From assembly GCA_028286615.1 (NCBI GenBank), contig JAQBRG010000003.1, positions 211,800 through 275,799 of the forward strand: a stretch of 64,000 nucleotides of DNA, in the 5' to 3' direction. Below are positions 57,508 through 59,651 of the stretch, one piece after another. Numbering within the stretch: the stretch's first letter is position 1; every line of letters starts with the position of its first letter. The translations under genes and the position numbers were made by a program. Under the pieces are notes generated by a model. That model made no database searches and was not told the DNA's origin. It saw only the letters and a program-made list of their open reading frames with translations. This stretch comes from Parcubacteria group bacterium. Its GTDB lineage: Bacteria; Patescibacteriota; Minisyncoccia; Phycocordibacterales; Phycocordibacteraceae.

Positions 57508-58029
57508 CTATATATCGTCTCTCGCAAGGAAAACTGACATCTGCTGATCTCTTGCTGGCAAATTCTTCTCTGCTCGCATCTCGTCTGTAATGCCAGATTC
57601 CTCATCATCCTGCATGGGCATTTGCTCCCATTCCTTCCCTTCTTCCTTATTGAACTGCGTTCCCCACTTCTGCTTCCCTCCTGTATTAAGAAGATATCTA
57701 TCTTCAGCTGCCGCAGACAGCCATGCGCCTGATTCACATCCTGCTTCAGCAGACCTATTCCCAATCTCGATCGCAATCAGGTAATCTTCAGCATTTGAAC
57801 TGTGTTGAAAAAGCATTCCCAGCTTCCATAGCTCCTCCCCATTTAAATCTATGGCGCCTTCTTTAACTCCTTCATATATTGCACGTGCGCGTGCAAGCCG
57901 CGGCTTGTCGTTCTCACGCATTTTCCCGAAGTCTATATTCTTATGCCCGACCGTTCGTTCGGCCTGATCGGCTTCGAATATTTCACTTAGTTCTACTCCG
58001 ATGTTTTTGCCAGAGGGCGTGCTTTTCAT
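57508..58029 (-). CDS. Hypothetical protein (173 aa), last gene of the CDPS operon
   Basis: ATG ORF immediately downstream of the EEP-family gene. No family assigned. Confidence 0.45.
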   Translation of the reverse strand: MKSTPSGKNIGVELSEIFEADQAERTVGHKNIDFGKMRENDKPRLARARAIYEGVKEGAIDLNGEELWKLGMLFQHSSNAEDYLIAIEIGNRSAEAGCESGAWLSAAAEDRYLLNTGGKQKWGTQFNKEEGKEWEQMPMQDDEESGITDEMRAEKNLPARDQQMSVFLARDDI

Positions 58030-58074
58030 ATAAAAGTGAGATTTATGAGTTGAGAGTCTGGTACGACGTGGAAC

Positions 58075-58842
58075 CTAGTCTAATTCAAATTCCGCCCAGC
58101 ATAGATAGTGGTCAGCATTAACAACGATGACATCTGAGGCAACAAGTGTGAACTCGGGAGAATAGAAAATATGGTCAGTGCGCTTCTTAGCTCCTTCAAC
58201 CGAAGGACGGGTATCCGTATCTGGCAGTGCCTCTGTTAGTTGAAGAGCTTTTAGATGTGGATATATCGAGAGAGGGTCCTCAAAGTTAAAGTCTCCGCAC
58301 CACAAGACTGGGTTCACCACATTCTCTGTCATAACCTTATTGATCCCTCTTGCAAGCTCACTTCCCACTCCGCCATCATCATAGGACAAACTGAAGAGAT
58401 GGATTGGAAGCATTTGATTATTAGCAATAGAGAAAAATTCAGTGCTCGCTATCTGCAGATTCTTCTCATGCATTGCTTTGGCAGGATTCCCATTTCGCCA
58501 GACAAGCGGTGCGCTTGGGTTTGGGTAGAATATGCGACGCTCATCAACAAAAGGTAGCCTCGAAAGAATAGAGGTGCTCAGTTTATATCCTTCCTCAATA
58601 TGAGAAACGCTTGAGACAGAATTAAAAACATAAGGGTACTCAAGCGCCTTCGCGATATCCTGTGCGTTTGAGTTCTCACCGTCATCGGATGTATGTGCCT
58701 CCTGAAGACAAACAATATCTGCGTTTATCGAGCGCAATTCTTCAATAAAATACAAAATGTCCTTCGCGTGGTAATCGAATTGCTTGAGTGTGCCGAAGGG
58801 ATGCCCACCCGCAATATTCCACGATGCTATCTTTAGATTCAC
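58075..58842 (-). CDS. Endonuclease/exonuclease/phosphatase (EEP) family protein
   Basis: MNLKIASWNIAGG...ADIVCLQEA...GDFNF matches EEP catalytic motifs. Confidence 0.8.
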   Translation of the reverse strand: MNLKIASWNIAGGHPFGTLKQFDYHAKDILYFIEELRSINADIVCLQEAHTSDDGENSNAQDIAKALEYPYVFNSVSSVSHIEEGYKLSTSILSRLPFVDERRIFYPNPSAPLVWRNGNPAKAMHEKNLQIASTEFFSIANNQMLPIHLFSLSYDDGGVGSELARGINKVMTENVVNPVLWCGDFNFEDPLSIYPHLKALQLTEALPDTDTRPSVEGAKKRTDHIFYSPEFTLVASDVIVVNADHYLCWAEFELD

Positions 58843-58883
58843 GCGTTAAGTATACAAGACGAGCTGACCATCTCATGCAAGCA

Positions 58884-59576
58884 CTACTGACTGACTACCA
58901 GAAAGGCTTTCGGCTCAGTATCTATAATATCCTTCTTAATCTCCGGAAAGATTTCGCCCTTTTGAATTCTTTCTACAAACTGAACCGTCTCGCTATCAGC
59001 TGGGTAGGCAAAGGCATCATATGAGAATTCCCCAGCCTGAACTATATTCATATGCTCTGGCAATTCTTCTAAGATATATTTGCCAAGTTTGTGTATTTCT
59101 TCATCCTTAAATTTACGTTCTTCCTTTGCAATGTAGTTTCTTACAATTGATTCGATTGCGTCGCGAAAAGCAGTATTTGTTTCGTAAAGGTTGTATAGGT
59201 ACTGTACTTTTTTCTGATAGGCACTATTTGCAATAGCGTCCCAATGAGCGAAATGAATCCGTTTCTGATCCTCAGACGAAAATTGTTTGCTAACAGCCTC
59301 CATAATCTGAGTCATGAGGCTTGCTCCCAGACTATAAGCTTGTTCTTTGGCCTTTTCTGCACTTATCTTTTTACGCACTTCAAGATTTATGGCATGAATA
59401 CTGTCGGCCATATATATCACTACATACTCTTTTGTATGTTCAAGAGACCATTTGGTCGCCTCAATGATATTTTCAATTGAGAACCACTTATTCCCAAGGC
59501 TGATACCGATGCCAATATTGTATTCCTTATTATCAAAAGCATCTTGGTTACCGCACCGTATTCGCTGTAACTGCAT
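58884..59576 (-). CDS. tRNA-dependent cyclodipeptide synthase (CDPS) homolog
   Basis: IGIGISLGNKWFS parallels AlbC/YvmC (L/V)(I/V)GIS(A/P)(G/F)NS(Y/R)FS with the catalytic Ser. VVIYMADSIHAINLEV parallels YvmC VLLAGHEAANLLEA. LGKYILEELPEHM parallels NYVLAELP/YVIAELPFF (Tyr...Glu). At 230 aa it matches the typical CDPS size. Confidence 0.8.
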   Translation of the reverse strand: MQLQRIRCGNQDAFDNKEYNIGIGISLGNKWFSIENIIEATKWSLEHTKEYVVIYMADSIHAINLEVRKKISAEKAKEQAYSLGASLMTQIMEAVSKQFSSEDQKRIHFAHWDAIANSAYQKKVQYLYNLYETNTAFRDAIESIVRNYIAKEERKFKDEEIHKLGKYILEELPEHMNIVQAGEFSYDAFAYPADSETVQFVERIQKGEIFPEIKKDIIDTEPKAFLVVSQ

Positions 59577-59580
59577 ATTG

Positions 59581-59651
59581 CTGCGAGACTAGGACTCGAA
59601 CCTAGATAACATCCTCCAGAGGGATGCGTCCTACCATTAGACGATCTCGCA
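59581..59651 (-). tRNA. tRNA-Gln (anticodon CTG)
   Basis: Reverse complement TGCGAGA-TC-GTCT-AATGGTA-GGAC-G-CATCC-CTCTGGA-GGATG-TTAT-CTAGG-TTCGAGT-CCTAG-TCTCGCA-G forms a canonical cloverleaf. The 3' end is 4 nt upstream of the CDPS ATG. Confidence 0.85.

What the first reader, a model, noticed from the sequence alone, without database searches (positions are those of the whole stretch)
57508..59651. Cyclodipeptide synthase homolog fused to the 3' end of a tRNA-Gln gene in an AT-rich islet
The 230-aa protein at 58884-59576 carries the diagnostic CDPS motifs: a GIS-x-GN-x-(W/Y)FS Ser pocket, an H-A-x-NL segment and a Y-x-x-x-E-LP motif. CDPSs hijack aminoacyl-tRNAs to make diketopiperazine natural products. 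Here the start codon sits 4 nt after the 3' end of tRNA-Gln(CTG) on the same strand, so the substrate-class RNA and the enzyme are probably co-transcribed. The mRNA would then be released by tRNA 3' processing, leaving essentially no 5' UTR or Shine-Dalgarno sequence. The islet is more AT-rich than the flanking znu and pyrG genes. It contains an EEP-family hydrolase and a 173-aa orphan downstream instead of the usual P450, oxidase or methyltransferase tailoring genes, so the cluster architecture is atypical and possibly undescribed. tRNA genes are classic integration sites, consistent with acquisition.
Basis: partly seen in the sequence, partly recalled or inferred. Interest (0 to 1): 0.82.

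Follow-up and report, generated by a model that had tools for sequence, protein, structure and literature searches.

The report
Cyclodipeptide synthase gene abutting tRNA-Gln
A Parcubacteria gene for a known type of enzyme that makes cyclic dipeptides from charged tRNAs starts only four bases after a glutamine tRNA gene, most likely because of repeated DNA insertions at that tRNA, so it is probably transcribed with the tRNA; the two neighbouring genes are unrelated passengers, not a new biosynthetic cluster.

Summary
ORF 58884-59576(-) is a bona fide cyclodipeptide synthase (CDPS), and its ATG lies 4 nt after the discriminator base of tRNA-Gln(CUG). It passes the curated cut-offs of PF16715 and TIGR04539, is 51% identical to the crystallised, cHP/cHE-producing ParcuCDPS, and keeps all catalytic residues.

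- The EEP hydrolase and the "orphan" (a DUF6624-family protein) accompany a CDPS in none of 99 other loci.
- Only the CDPS itself is AT-rich, a family-wide trait seen in 98% of 60 loci.

What is there is a conserved chromosomal site (pyrG-DUF1761-tRNA-Gln-CDPS ... Fur/Zur) that is an insertion hotspot. Relatives carry inserts between the tRNA and a displaced tRNA 3' remnant. The window has such a decayed remnant after DUF6624.

Relatives keep a 36-nt leaderless promoter between tRNA and CDPS, and the window has lost it. The genome barely uses Shine-Dalgarno sequences and shows a strong leaderless-promoter signature. Co-transcription with tRNA-Gln, followed by tRNA 3' processing that yields a near-leaderless mRNA, is therefore the best (inferred) expression model.

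New observation: same-strand tRNAs lie within 300 nt upstream in 14 of 75 CDPS clusters, against 2.8% of background genes (p = 4e-7). Abutment arose in three lineages.

The parts
59685..59713 (-). Sigma-70-like promoter of tRNA-Gln: TTGAAA (59713-59708), a 17-nt spacer, TATCGT (59690-59685). It is the only recognisable promoter upstream of the CDPS.
   Evidence: Consensus scan (9/12, not above chance on its own). It is conserved as TTGAAA-N17-TATTGT in the syntenic relatives L101 and L002.
59658..59675 (-). GC-rich hairpin in the predicted 5' leader of pre-tRNA-Gln (AAGCGGC-TACG-GCCGCTT), ending 6 nt before the tRNA.
   Evidence: Sequence. It is present in the MFE fold and conserved in L101, L002 and L036. 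Function unknown.
59581..59651 (-). tRNA-Gln, anticodon CUG, with a U1-A72 pair and discriminator G73. No CCA is encoded; the trailer begins C-A-A.
   Evidence: ARAGORN. Rfam RF00005 at 61.2 bits, model positions 1-71. Sequence.
59577..59580 (-). 4-nt spacer CAAT between the tRNA discriminator and the CDPS ATG. It has no room for a promoter, terminator or SD.
   Evidence: The junction is reproduced in the independent assembly L001.
58884..59576 (-). Cyclodipeptide synthase, 230 aa, XYP subfamily, ParcuCDPS clade (NCBI MDB5264865.1, annotated 'hypothetical protein').
   Evidence: PF16715 47.6 bits (GA 27) and TIGR04539 73.8 bits (cut-off 45). 51% identity over 228 aa to PDB 7QB8/7QAW, E about 1e-71. 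S26, D58, Y167, E171, Y191 and P192 are conserved. dN/dS is 0.06-0.08 against relatives.
58849..58876 (-). Promoter-like site whose -10 box (TATACT) ends 6 nt before the GTG of the EEP gene. That is the spacing typical of this genome's leaderless genes.
   Evidence: Scan. Genome-wide spacing statistics.
58075..58842 (-). Endonuclease/exonuclease/phosphatase-family hydrolase, 255 aa. An accessory gene, not a conserved CDPS partner.
   Evidence: PF03372 63.8 bits. Absent from 99 other CDPS loci. Homologues lie in other contexts, including a DUF1761-linked variable region without a CDPS. No match by sequence to any solved structure.
57508..58029 (-). An accessory gene.
   Evidence: 48 homologues, several PF20329, found in unrelated neighbourhoods. 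Absent from the other CDPS loci.
57441..57500 (-). Decayed tRNA-Gln 3'-half remnant (about 57500-57474, ...GTTCCCGGCTCCCAGCC) plus a conserved trailer (57473-57441, AACTCGCGCTAGG...CGCTCGAGACGC). This is the distal boundary of the segment CDPS-EEP-DUF6624.
   Evidence: 40 nt are 85% identical to L104 306-345. There the element follows a clearer T-loop/acceptor remnant (GGAAGTTCGAATCCCAGACTGCCAGCCA) just upstream of that CDPS. There is no Rfam hit, and a direct short-BLAST against the window's own tRNA 3' end found nothing.
57350..57376 (.). Strong intrinsic-terminator hairpin (12-bp stem) with T-runs on both strands. It ends the tRNA-Gln/CDPS/EEP/DUF6624 unit and the convergent zur gene.

Best explanation
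The gene encodes an active tRNA-dependent cyclodipeptide synthase of the ParcuCDPS (XYP) clade. It most likely takes His-tRNA-His in pocket P1 and makes cyclo(His-X) dipeptides, by analogy with the cHP/cHE made by the characterised enzyme.

It sits at a chromosomal position conserved in this Parcubacteria family: FtsEX-PyrG-...-DUF1761-tRNA-Gln(CUG)-CDPS-variable genes-Fur/Zur metal transporter. The 3' end of this tRNA-Gln is a recurrent site-specific insertion point. Elements insert there, regenerate the tRNA and push the old 3' end (a remnant) to their far side.

In relatives the CDPS has its own leaderless promoter, packed into a 36-nt spacer that begins at the tRNA 3' end (cagC-TGACA, N16-17, TATAGT, N8, ATG). 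In the window a rearrangement at the hotspot removed that spacer. It left tRNA-CAAT-ATG, and left the segment CDPS-EEP-DUF6624 bracketed by the intact tRNA and a decayed remnant.

The CDPS therefore has to be transcribed from the tRNA-Gln promoter as a tRNA-mRNA precursor. Because the tRNA lacks an encoded CCA, endonucleolytic 3' processing (RNase Z type) after G73 would release an mRNA with a 4-nt leader. This organism evidently initiates most translation without Shine-Dalgarno sequences and often on leaderless mRNAs, so such an mRNA should be translatable. EEP and DUF6624 are unrelated accessory genes of the variable zone, and EEP probably also has its own leaderless promoter.

Shown: enzyme family, catalytic residues, junction, synteny, insertion scars in relatives, loss of the spacer, the genome-wide no-SD and leaderless signature, and non-conservation of the neighbours.
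Inferred: co-transcription, the processing enzyme, translation of the 4-nt-leader mRNA, and the product.
For: Family:
- Curated HMM cut-offs are passed.
- 51% identity over the full length to the solved ParcuCDPS.
- Catalytic residues and P1 residues Y55 and E174 are conserved (residue roles from PMC7613923; products cHP 44% and cHE 56% from PMC5816076).
- Purifying selection, dN/dS 0.056-0.076.

Synteny:
- L101/L103 (68% identity) and L002 share PyrG-DUF1761-tRNA-Gln-CDPS.

Hotspot:
- L102 has an identical CDPS, but a recombinase/KAP-NTPase element lies upstream, with the crossover inside 'tcccgcagc' of the tRNA.
- L002, L036, L012 and L023 have inserts between the intact tRNA-Gln and a remnant lying next to the CDPS.
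- L022 has an exact 19-nt tRNA-Glu repeat.
- A related contig has DUF1761 followed by different cargo that includes EEP but no CDPS.
- The window has a remnant plus trailer homologous to L104's.

Promoter loss:
- The CAGC|TGACA-N16/17-[TC]ATA[GT]T-N8-ATG signature is conserved in four lineages and absent from the window.
- The best -10-like hexamer upstream of the window's ATG is TAGTCT (3/6) inside the tRNA.
- The tRNA-Gln promoter is conserved in three relatives.
- There is no terminator before 57376.

Translation context:
- An SD core motif is present in 9/68 ORFs against 8% at random positions.
- A >=5/6 -10 box ends 5-10 nt before the start in 14/68 ORFs against 1.6% at random, with the peak at 6 nt.

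Recurrence:
- Abutment with CCA-less tRNAs also occurs in L009/L026 (Gln, 6-8 nt) and L013 (Pro, 4 nt), both with intact ORFs.
Against: - There are no transcript data. Co-transcription and processing are inferred from the absence of alternatives.
- The window does not show an RNase Z gene (only RNase J). Only 64 kb is available.
- A 4-nt leader is not strictly leaderless, and its translatability in this organism is unknown.
- The remnant at 57474-57500 is decayed. It is recognisable as tRNA-derived only through L104, not by direct comparison with the window's own tRNA or by Rfam.
- The exact rearrangement history cannot be reconstructed. L104 has remnant-trailer-CDPS next to dnaA, while the window has CDPS...remnant-trailer.
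- No integrase lies in or next to the segment.
- Position 189 of the His pocket is F rather than Y, so the product prediction is tentative.
Confidence: 0.6

Rival explanations
1. Functional coupling. CDPS genes of this clade are kept next to, and co-expressed with, tRNA genes because the tRNA (or its charged form) is the enzyme's substrate or regulator. Here tRNA-Gln would be used as Glu-tRNA-Gln or Gln-tRNA-Gln for the second (P2) position, giving cHE or cHQ. In L013 the equivalent would be tRNA-Pro, giving cHP.
For: - Same-strand tRNAs lie within 300 nt upstream of 14/75 de-replicated CDPS clusters, against 21/744 background genes (Fisher p = 4.4e-7, OR 7.9). Within 100 nt the figures are 8/75 against 13/744 (p = 2.6e-4).
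- tRNA-Gln is the nearest upstream tRNA in about 10 lineages scattered over the tree, including a 25%-identity outlier.
- The two tRNA species that abut CDPS genes are Gln and Pro, and ParcuCDPS makes cHE and cHP (PMC5816076).
- Other loci link the CDPS to PheRS subunit genes, including pheS-CDPS-pheT in two DPANN loci.
Against: - Twelve different tRNA species occur within 300 nt, among them Ser, Leu, Arg, Ile and Asn. These do not match known products.
- tRNA-His, the P1 substrate, is never adjacent.
- ParcuCDPS's own locus (L008) has no tRNA within 6 kb.
- Insertion scars give a sufficient non-functional explanation for the association.
- Most tRNA-Gln cases share a homologous spacer, so they are one inherited linkage and not independent events.
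- Whether the organism lacks GlnRS is unknown.
Confidence: 0.13
2. CDPS + EEP hydrolase + 173-aa protein form a novel, horizontally acquired biosynthetic cluster, in which the EEP and the small protein tailor or export the diketopiperazine.
For: - The three genes are co-oriented and closely spaced. They are bounded by the tRNA and a tRNA-like remnant, and end at one terminator.
- The segment as a unit looks like an insertion.
Against: - Neither gene accompanies a CDPS in 99 other loci, including the 75% and 68% relatives.
- Their homologues occur in unrelated contexts.
- Recurrent CDPS partners in this clade are SET-domain, class-I methyltransferase and GNAT genes, none of which is present here.
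- The GC content of EEP and DUF6624 is ordinary.
- EEP has its own promoter-like site.
Confidence: 0.04
3. Independent transcription. A promoter inside the tRNA gene's 3' half drives the CDPS, so the tRNA sequence merely overlaps the promoter or 5' UTR and no tRNA processing is involved.
For: - TAGTCT (T1, A2 and T6 of the -10 consensus) ends 9 nt before the ATG, which is close to the spacing of this genome's leaderless promoters.
- In relatives the -35 of the CDPS promoter already overlaps the tRNA 3' end.
Against: - The hexamer matches only 3/6 and has no -35-like partner.
- The other abutting loci (L009, L026, L013) have no comparable hexamer.
- RNA polymerase would have to initiate inside a heavily transcribed tRNA gene.
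Confidence: 0.1
4. Silenced relic. Losing the spacer promoter inactivated expression, and the gene is on its way to becoming a pseudogene.
For: The window lacks the promoter spacer that relatives retain. Truncated CDPS fragments exist in other genomes.
Against: - The ORF is intact, with every catalytic residue.
- dN/dS of 0.06-0.08 is no higher than between relatives that keep the promoter.
- Abutment occurs with intact ORFs in two further lineages.
- Read-through from the tRNA promoter is unavoidable, because no terminator intervenes.
Confidence: 0.08

Closest known systems
ParcuCDPS, the CDPS of Parcubacteria bacterium RAAC4_OD1_1 (GenBank ETB63777.1; PDB 7QB8 and mutants; Gondry et al. 2018, PMC5816076; Sutherland et al. 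2022, PMC7613923)
   Same: - Same length, 51% identity over 228 aa with no gaps.
- XYP subfamily.
- Identical catalytic residues S26, D58, Y167, E171, Y191 and P192, and identical His-pocket residues Y55 and E174.
- CPR host.
   Different: - Position 189 is F. ParcuCDPS has Y, and its Y189F mutant has lowered cHP output.
- ParcuCDPS's locus (L008) has no tRNA within 6 kb upstream.
- The product of the window enzyme is untested.
tRNA punctuation of mitochondrial polycistronic transcripts (Ojala, Montoya and Attardi 1981; RNase P plus RNase Z/ELAC2 release leaderless mRNAs). Cited from my own knowledge.
   Same: An mRNA start codon lies within a few nucleotides of a tRNA 3' end. There is no intervening promoter or UTR. 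The translation system copes with leaderless mRNAs.
   Different: - Here it is a single junction in a bacterial genome that otherwise makes leaderless mRNAs from closely placed -10 boxes.
- Processing is not demonstrated.
- The leader would be 4 nt, not 0-3.
Bacterial tRNA-mRNA co-transcripts such as the E. coli thrU-tyrU-glyT-thrT-tufB operon. Cited from my own knowledge.
   Same: A protein gene lies downstream of tRNA gene(s) under the tRNA promoter and is separated from them by RNA processing.
   Different: tufB has a normal leader with an SD sequence. Here there is essentially no leader and no SD.
[quoted passage not shown]
   Same: - Variable accessory genes lie at the 3' side of a tRNA gene.
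- A displaced tRNA 3' repeat marks the far boundary.
- Relatives carry different cargo at the same site.
   Different: - No integrase lies in the window segment.
- The segment is only 2.1 kb.
- The repeat is decayed.
- The CDPS-tRNA-Gln linkage itself is old and syntenic rather than a recent acquisition.

Membership tests
Cyclodipeptide synthase (Pfam PF16715 / NCBIfam TIGR04539) | Profile-HMM score above the curated family cut-off | tested here: met
   PF16715 47.6 bits against GA 27. TIGR04539 73.8 bits against 45.
Cyclodipeptide synthase (Pfam PF16715 / NCBIfam TIGR04539) | Catalytic serine in the G-I-S motif (AlbC S37), plus Y178, E182 and Y202 (AlbC numbering) | tested here: met
   S26, Y167, E171 and Y191 are present and invariant or nearly so in 85 homologues. 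D58 is also conserved.
Cyclodipeptide synthase (Pfam PF16715 / NCBIfam TIGR04539) | Rossmann-like fold of class-Ic aminoacyl-tRNA synthetase catalytic domains | tested here: met
   Inferred from gap-free 51% identity over 228 of 230 residues to the crystal structures 7QB8/7QAW (E about 1e-71). No separate structure prediction was run.
Cyclodipeptide synthase (Pfam PF16715 / NCBIfam TIGR04539) | Aminoacyl-tRNA-dependent formation of a cyclodipeptide | not testable with these tools
   Needs expression and LC-MS. The relative ParcuCDPS makes cHP and cHE (PMC5816076).
XYP subfamily of CDPSs | Y202-P203 (AlbC numbering) instead of Y-H | tested here: met
   Y191-P192. P192 is invariant in 85 homologues.
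His-accepting ParcuCDPS-type P1 pocket | Y55, E174 and Y189 lining P1 (PMC7613923) | tested here: inconclusive
   Y55 and E174 are present. Position 189 is F, shared by 9/56 clade members. The paper reports Y189 mutations as less damaging than Y55 mutations.
CDPS biosynthetic gene cluster with tailoring enzymes | Neighbouring genes co-occur with the CDPS across genomes | tested here: not met
   EEP and the 173-aa protein are absent from 99 other CDPS loci. Their homologues lie elsewhere.
tRNA-targeted integrated islet | Located directly at the 3' end of a tRNA gene, with different cargo at the same site in relatives | tested here: met
tRNA-targeted integrated islet | Direct repeat of the tRNA 3' end at the distal boundary | tested here: inconclusive
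   A decayed remnant lies at about 57474-57500 and is homologous to L104's clearer tRNA-3'-half remnant. It was not detected by short-BLAST against the window's own tRNA or by Rfam.
tRNA-targeted integrated islet | Integrase or recombinase gene within the islet | tested here: not met
   The segment holds only CDPS, EEP and DUF6624. A recombinase is present in the L102 insert at the same tRNA.
tRNA-targeted integrated islet | Composition deviating from the host | tested here: not met
   Only the CDPS is AT-rich, and that is a family-wide trait.
tRNA-punctuated, (near-)leaderless mRNA | No promoter, terminator or UTR between the tRNA 3' end and the start codon | tested here: met
   4-nt spacer. 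The best -10-like match is 3/6, and there is no terminator.
tRNA-punctuated, (near-)leaderless mRNA | tRNA without encoded CCA (a substrate for endonucleolytic 3' cleavage after the discriminator) | tested here: met
   The trailer is CAA. All five tRNAs within 23 nt of a CDPS lack CCA. RNase Z's preference for CCA-less precursors is cited from my own knowledge of B. subtilis.
tRNA-punctuated, (near-)leaderless mRNA | Host translation system that handles leaderless or SD-less mRNAs | tested here: met
   No SD enrichment (9/68 against 8% at random). -10 boxes lie 5-10 nt from starts in 14/68 ORFs against 1.6%. This is sequence inference only.
tRNA-punctuated, (near-)leaderless mRNA | Precursor transcript spanning tRNA and ORF, with a processed 5' end at the tRNA 3' boundary | not testable with these tools
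   Needs RNA-seq, 5'-RACE or dRNA-seq.

The most novel reading that the evidence does not exclude
In CPR bacteria the ParcuCDPS-type enzymes are deliberately wired to the tRNA pool. Selection keeps the gene immediately downstream of a tRNA gene, in three lineages fused to it as a tRNA-punctuated leaderless mRNA. Enzyme output then tracks tRNA transcription, or the linked tRNA is the preferred carrier of the second substrate (tRNA-Gln as the mischarged Glu-tRNA-Gln intermediate, or tRNA-Pro). That would be the first case of a natural-product enzyme co-encoded with its tRNA substrate. The embedding of homologues between pheS and pheT in DPANN archaea would be the same theme.
Probability: 0.12. 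Interest if true: 0.8.

Novelty: new variant of a known kind. Interest (0 to 1): 0.45.

Why it matters
The enzyme itself is a further member of a characterised clade, so it adds little chemistry. Its natural Y189F pocket variant could be worth testing for anyone engineering His-containing diketopiperazines.

The organisation is more interesting. This is a gene for a tRNA-consuming enzyme whose mRNA apparently has to be cut out of a tRNA precursor, in an uncultivated CPR bacterium whose genes largely lack Shine-Dalgarno sequences and carry leaderless-type promoters. If confirmed, it would be a bacterial example of mitochondrion-like tRNA punctuation, and a handle on how CPR bacteria express genes.

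The family-wide excess of tRNA genes just upstream of these CDPS genes, and the well-resolved series of insertion scars at tRNA-Gln, also document a small integration hotspot in Parcubacteria genomes, which are usually thought to be poor in mobile elements.

For the scan, the finding corrects an over-reading. There is no new biosynthetic cluster and no compositional evidence of acquisition.

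Tried and rejected
1. EEP function. Sequence search against the PDB gave nothing, and NCBIfam gave only weak exonuclease-III N-terminal similarity. 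No functional assignment beyond the superfamily.
2. Rfam at a permissive E-value over 57000-60300. Only the tRNA was significant. The remnant, the trailer and the leader hairpin match no family, and the Phe_leader/CsrC hits are just the terminator hairpin.
3. A direct search for a repeat of the window's own tRNA-Gln 3' 32 nt downstream found nothing convincing. The remnant was recognised only through L104.
4. 'tRNA-abutting genes are a general habit of this lineage'. The best control case (L101 tRNA-Thr to release factor, 1-nt gap) turned out to be a probable start-codon miscall, because the tRNA encodes CCA and is followed by a terminator. I withdrew it. The background counts within 25 nt are therefore inflated and the CDPS enrichment is conservative.
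5. GlnRS, GluRS or GatCAB in the window. Ten large ORFs were scanned and none is an aaRS or amidotransferase. Literature searches on the CPR Gln-tRNA pathway, CPR leaderless mRNAs and tRNA-adjacent CDPS genes returned nothing usable.
6. An internal promoter inside the tRNA. Only a 3/6 hexamer was found.
7. Pseudogenisation was rejected on dN/dS and residue conservation.
8. Assembly chimera was rejected, because L001 reproduces the junction. It may, however, derive from the same read set.
9. No structure prediction was run. 51% identity to a crystal structure made it unnecessary.
10. A full reconstruction of how the CDPS came to lie on the tRNA-proximal side of the remnant was attempted from L104, L101 and L002 but is not resolvable with these few relatives.

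Full report
OBSERVATION

The stated features are in the sequence. On the minus strand, ARAGORN calls tRNA-Gln(ctg) at 59580-59651. Rfam's tRNA model matches 59581-59651 over its full length at 61.2 bits, against a gathering score of 29. The discriminator G is at 59581. The next bases are C-A-A-T, and then comes ATG at 59576, which opens a 230-codon ORF ending at 58884.

An in-frame TAG lies inside the tRNA T-arm, and no other canonical start codon precedes the G-I-S motif. In an alignment of 23 homologues, M1, L3 and R7 are nearly invariant, and almost all proteins are 229-230 aa. The start codon is therefore not in doubt. An independent assembly of the same organism (L001) reproduces the 33 nt upstream of the ATG exactly.

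The downstream ORFs 58075-58842 and 57508-58029 exist.

IDENTITY OF THE ENZYME

The protein passes the curated cut-offs of Pfam PF16715 (47.6 bits, GA 27) and NCBIfam TIGR04539 (73.8 bits, cut-off 45). The window comes from a Parcubacteria-group MAG. The identical protein is NCBI MDB5264865.1, annotated 'hypothetical protein JWN64_436'.

It is 51% identical, without gaps over 228 residues, to the crystallised CDPS of Parcubacteria bacterium RAAC4_OD1_1 (PDB 7QB8 and its mutants; E about 1e-71). That enzyme, ParcuCDPS, belongs to the XYP subfamily. It produces cyclo(His-Pro) (44%) and cyclo(His-Glu) (56%) in E. coli (PMC5816076; PMC7613923).

The window protein keeps S26, D58, Y167, E171, Y191 and P192. 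It also keeps two of the three His-pocket residues, Y55 and E174. The third position is F189 instead of Y, as in 9 of 56 clade members; the paper reports Y189 as the less critical of the two tyrosines.

dN/dS against the 75% and 68% relatives is 0.076 and 0.056. So this is an intact, selected member of a known, characterised clade. A cyclo(His-X) product is likely but untested.

THE NEIGHBOURS ARE NOT A CLUSTER

I collected 99 other loci encoding relatives, from genomes and metagenomes. tBLASTn with the EEP hydrolase and the 173-aa protein found them next to a CDPS only in L001, which is the same organism.

The 173-aa protein is not an orphan. It has 48 Parcubacteria homologues, several carrying PF20329/DUF6624, and they sit among unrelated housekeeping genes.

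EEP homologues also lie elsewhere. One 77% homologue lies in a contig reading DUF1761 - abhydrolase - aminoglycoside-resistance-like - EEP - kinase, with no CDPS.

The partners that do recur with this CDPS clade are absent from the window:
- a SET-domain protein at +1 in 9 loci (PF00856, 47 bits), plus a hit (P0076) that carries PF00856;
- class-I methyltransferases;
- GNATs.

COMPOSITION

The CDPS is the lowest-GC ORF of the window (39.1%). EEP (44.7%) and DUF6624 (47.3%) are ordinary, the window ORFs averaging 47.7 +/- 3.6%. Across 60 loci the CDPS is lower in GC than its flanks in 98% of cases, by 7.4 points on average, in hosts from 30% to 51% GC. AT-richness is a property of the gene family and is not evidence of recent acquisition.

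THE LOCUS IS SYNTENIC AND IS AN INSERTION HOTSPOT

In L101/L103 (CDPS 68% identical) the order is RF-FtsE-FtsX-PyrG-...-DUF1761-tRNA-Gln(ctg)-36 nt-CDPS-other accessory genes-Fur-Zip. This mirrors the window's FtsX-PyrG-HTH-DUF1761-tRNA-Gln-CDPS-EEP-DUF6624-Zur-ZnuABC. L002 (55%) has PyrG-DUF1761-tRNA-Gln as well.

L102 carries the identical CDPS, but everything upstream is replaced by an element encoding a resolvase/recombinase, an AAA_25 protein and a KAP NTPase. Identity with L101 resumes at 'tcccgcagc', the last bases of the tRNA.

Other loci show the same kind of scar:
- L002 has a roughly 480-nt insert between the intact tRNA and a remnant (GTTCGAATACCGTCCCCGGCGGCCAGC), followed by the same spacer and the CDPS.
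- L036 (3.8 kb), L023 (2.3 kb) and L012 (about 43 nt) show the same pattern.
- L022 has an exact 19-nt repeat of a tRNA-Glu 3' end.
- L038/L007 have 12-nt tRNA-Ser 3'-end repeats downstream of a CDPS + methyltransferase pair.

In the window, 8 nt after the DUF6624 stop codon, lies a decayed tRNA-3'-half-like stretch plus a trailer (57441-57500). Forty nucleotides of it are 85% identical to a sequence in L104, the 75% relative. There it follows a recognisable T-loop/acceptor remnant and precedes the CDPS, next to dnaA.

The segment CDPS-EEP-DUF6624 thus has the structure of an insert between the regenerated tRNA and its displaced 3' end. However, the remnant is too decayed to be detected against the window's own tRNA or by Rfam. 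No integrase is present, and I could not reconstruct the order of events.

EXPRESSION

In four lineages (L101, L002, L036, L012) the tRNA end or remnant is followed by a conserved 36-nt spacer: cagC-TGACA, N16-17, [T/C]ATA[G/T]T, N8, ATG. This is a -35 that starts at the tRNA 3' end, a -10, and the spacing expected for a leaderless transcript. The window has only CAAT. The best -10-like hexamer near its ATG is TAGTCT (3/6), inside the tRNA.

Upstream of the tRNA there is TTGAAA-N17-TATCGT, conserved as TTGAAA-N17-TATTGT in L101 and L002. A GC hairpin in the predicted 5' leader is conserved too. No terminator-like site occurs before the strong hairpin at 57376-57350.

The genome does not use Shine-Dalgarno sequences to any visible extent. 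A core motif occurs in 9 of 68 ORFs, against 8% at random positions. In contrast, 14 of 68 ORFs have a >=5/6 -10 box ending 5-10 nt before the start codon, against 1.6% at random, with the mode at 6 nt. That is the signature of leaderless mRNAs. The EEP gene has TATACT ending 6 nt before its GTG.

The tRNA lacks an encoded CCA, as do all five tRNAs that lie within 23 nt of a CDPS start. From established knowledge of B. subtilis, such precursors are cut by RNase Z directly after the discriminator. That cut would leave an mRNA beginning CAAUAUG.

I therefore infer co-transcription from the tRNA-Gln promoter and release of a near-leaderless mRNA by tRNA 3' processing. None of this is shown by transcript data. 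The window contains RNase J but no recognisable RNase Z among the ORFs I scanned.

A FAMILY-WIDE ASSOCIATION WITH tRNA GENES

After de-replication at 90% identity, 14 of 75 CDPS clusters with at least 300 nt of upstream sequence have a same-strand tRNA ending within 300 nt of the start. Among other ORFs in the same loci the figure is 21 of 744 (Fisher p = 4.4e-7, odds ratio 7.9). Within 100 nt it is 8/75 against 13/744 (p = 2.6e-4). Within 25 nt it is 4/75 against 9/744 (p = 0.025). The background is inflated by miscalled starts; one apparent control case, L101 tRNA-Thr to release factor, is such an artefact.

Twelve tRNA species are involved. tRNA-Gln dominates and is scattered over the CDPS tree, but the shared spacer shows that much of this is one inherited linkage.

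True abutment (4-8 nt) occurs in three lineages:
- the window (Gln);
- L009/L026 (Gln), whose sister L023 has the abutting remnant;
- L013 (Pro), where the upstream ORF also runs up to the tRNA.

Each has non-abutting sisters, so the state is derived and recurrent.

WHAT THE ASSOCIATION MEANS

The insertion scars give a sufficient explanation. CDPS genes sit at tRNA 3' ends, where recombination is frequent, and deletions or re-integrations there occasionally remove the short spacer.

A functional link is not excluded. The idea is co-expression with, or use of, the adjacent tRNA. Gln and Pro are the abutting species, ParcuCDPS makes cHE and cHP, and tRNA-Gln carries Glu transiently in organisms without GlnRS. 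Homologues wedged between pheS and pheT in two DPANN loci point the same way.

Several observations argue against it: Ser, Leu, Arg, Ile and Asn tRNAs also occur, tRNA-His is never adjacent, and ParcuCDPS's own locus has no tRNA within 6 kb upstream. I could not determine the Gln-tRNA pathway of this organism. I give this reading about 0.12.

COMPARISON WITH WHAT IS KNOWN, AND NOVELTY

The enzyme is a new member of the ParcuCDPS clade, and every membership feature that could be tested was met except the one variable pocket residue. The locus behaves like a small tRNA-associated island hotspot but lacks an integrase. CDPS clusters near tRNA genes and mobile elements have been noted for bicyclomycin in mycobacteria (PMC5930311).

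The inferred expression mode resembles mitochondrial tRNA punctuation, and it resembles tRNA-mRNA operons such as thrU-tufB but without a leader. I found no paper in the library describing tRNA-abutted CDPS genes, the tRNA excess upstream of this clade, or leaderless expression in Parcubacteria.

I rate it a new variant of a known kind. The enzyme is known, and what is unusual and recurrent is the gene architecture.

VERDICT

Its headline claims of a novel cluster and an AT-rich acquired islet are not supported. Interest is moderate at 0.45, carried by the tRNA-punctuation inference and the family-wide tRNA association rather than by the enzyme.

Noticed in passing
whole window (68 ORFs of at least 110 aa): The genome shows essentially no Shine-Dalgarno enrichment (9/68 against 8% at random). 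It shows a strong excess of TATAAT-like boxes ending 5-10 nt (mode 6) before start codons (14/68 against 1.6%). This points to widespread leaderless transcription in this Parcubacteria bacterium.
   Followed up: partly
L009 4718-5215; also L018, L035, L049-51, L056, L060, L069 (+1 position); protein P0076: A roughly 165-aa SET-domain protein (PF00856, 47 bits) lies immediately downstream of the CDPS, on the same strand, in 9 loci. One 377-aa hit (P0076) carries PF00856, so it may be a CDPS-SET fusion. This is a candidate tailoring methyltransferase for this clade and is absent from the window.
   Followed up: partly
L076 and L083 (DPANN archaea); L004/L021 (CPR): CDPS homologues lie between the PheRS alpha and beta subunit genes (pheS-CDPS-pheT) in two archaeal loci, and directly after pheT in a CPR lineage. 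PheRS domains were confirmed by Pfam for L021 and L083.
   Followed up: partly
L102 1-7960, compared with L101 7893-7964: A mobile element of at least 8 kb (resolvase/recombinase, AAA_25, KAP NTPase) is integrated into the 3' end of tRNA-Gln(ctg) in one population variant. The crossover lies within 'tcccgcagc'. L101 is the empty site.
   Followed up: partly
window 59658-59675(-); L101 about 7869-7886; L002 about 5360-5380; L036: A conserved GC-rich hairpin (AAGCGGC-NNNN-GCCGCTT) ends 6-7 nt before the 5' end of tRNA-Gln, downstream of the conserved promoter. Its function is unknown. It could stabilise the 5' leader against RNase J, or act as a processing or attenuation element.
   Followed up: no
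L032/L089/L090 (6001-6204), L096, L097, L099, L100, L093: Short ORFs of 47-105 aa match only the N-terminal 45-70 residues of the CDPS (up to 60% identity; PF16715 19 bits, below threshold). They are either truncated relics or a separate small-protein family.
   Followed up: no
L013 3252-3923, 4063-4728, 8330-8998, with tRNAs at 3926-3998, 4719-4792 and 9010-9083: Three paralogous HTH-like ORFs of about 220 aa each end at or inside a tRNA gene. A Cys-rich 131-aa ORF runs up to tRNA-Pro. This is a repeated ORF-tRNA unit of unknown meaning.
   Followed up: no
L048 654-1737: A cluster of six tRNA genes (Arg x2, Ser x4) lies just upstream of a CDPS. It includes a tRNA-Ser called with the unusual anticodon ACT.
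   Followed up: no
L024, L027-L031, L067-L088: A sister group of the CPR CDPS clade (31-39% identity) is encoded in DPANN archaeal MAGs (Pacearchaeota, Woesearchaeota, Nanoarchaeota). There the His-pocket residues Y55 and E174 are mostly replaced (L/W/V and G/S/L), which suggests different substrates. Almost none of these loci has an adjacent tRNA.
   Followed up: partly
60 CDPS loci: CDPS genes are lower in GC than their flanks in 98% of loci, by 7.4 points on average and regardless of host GC. The cause was not examined; amino-acid composition or repeated transfer are possibilities.
   Followed up: no
L101 1500-1620: tRNA-Thr(cgt) with an encoded CCA is followed at once by an intrinsic terminator. 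That terminator overlaps the start of the release-factor gene as called by the source annotation, so the RF start is probably miscalled.
   Followed up: partly
window 12246-14189(+): An RNase J gene (beta-CASP and C-terminal domains). It is relevant to 5'-end-dependent decay of processed or leaderless mRNAs in this organism.
   Followed up: no
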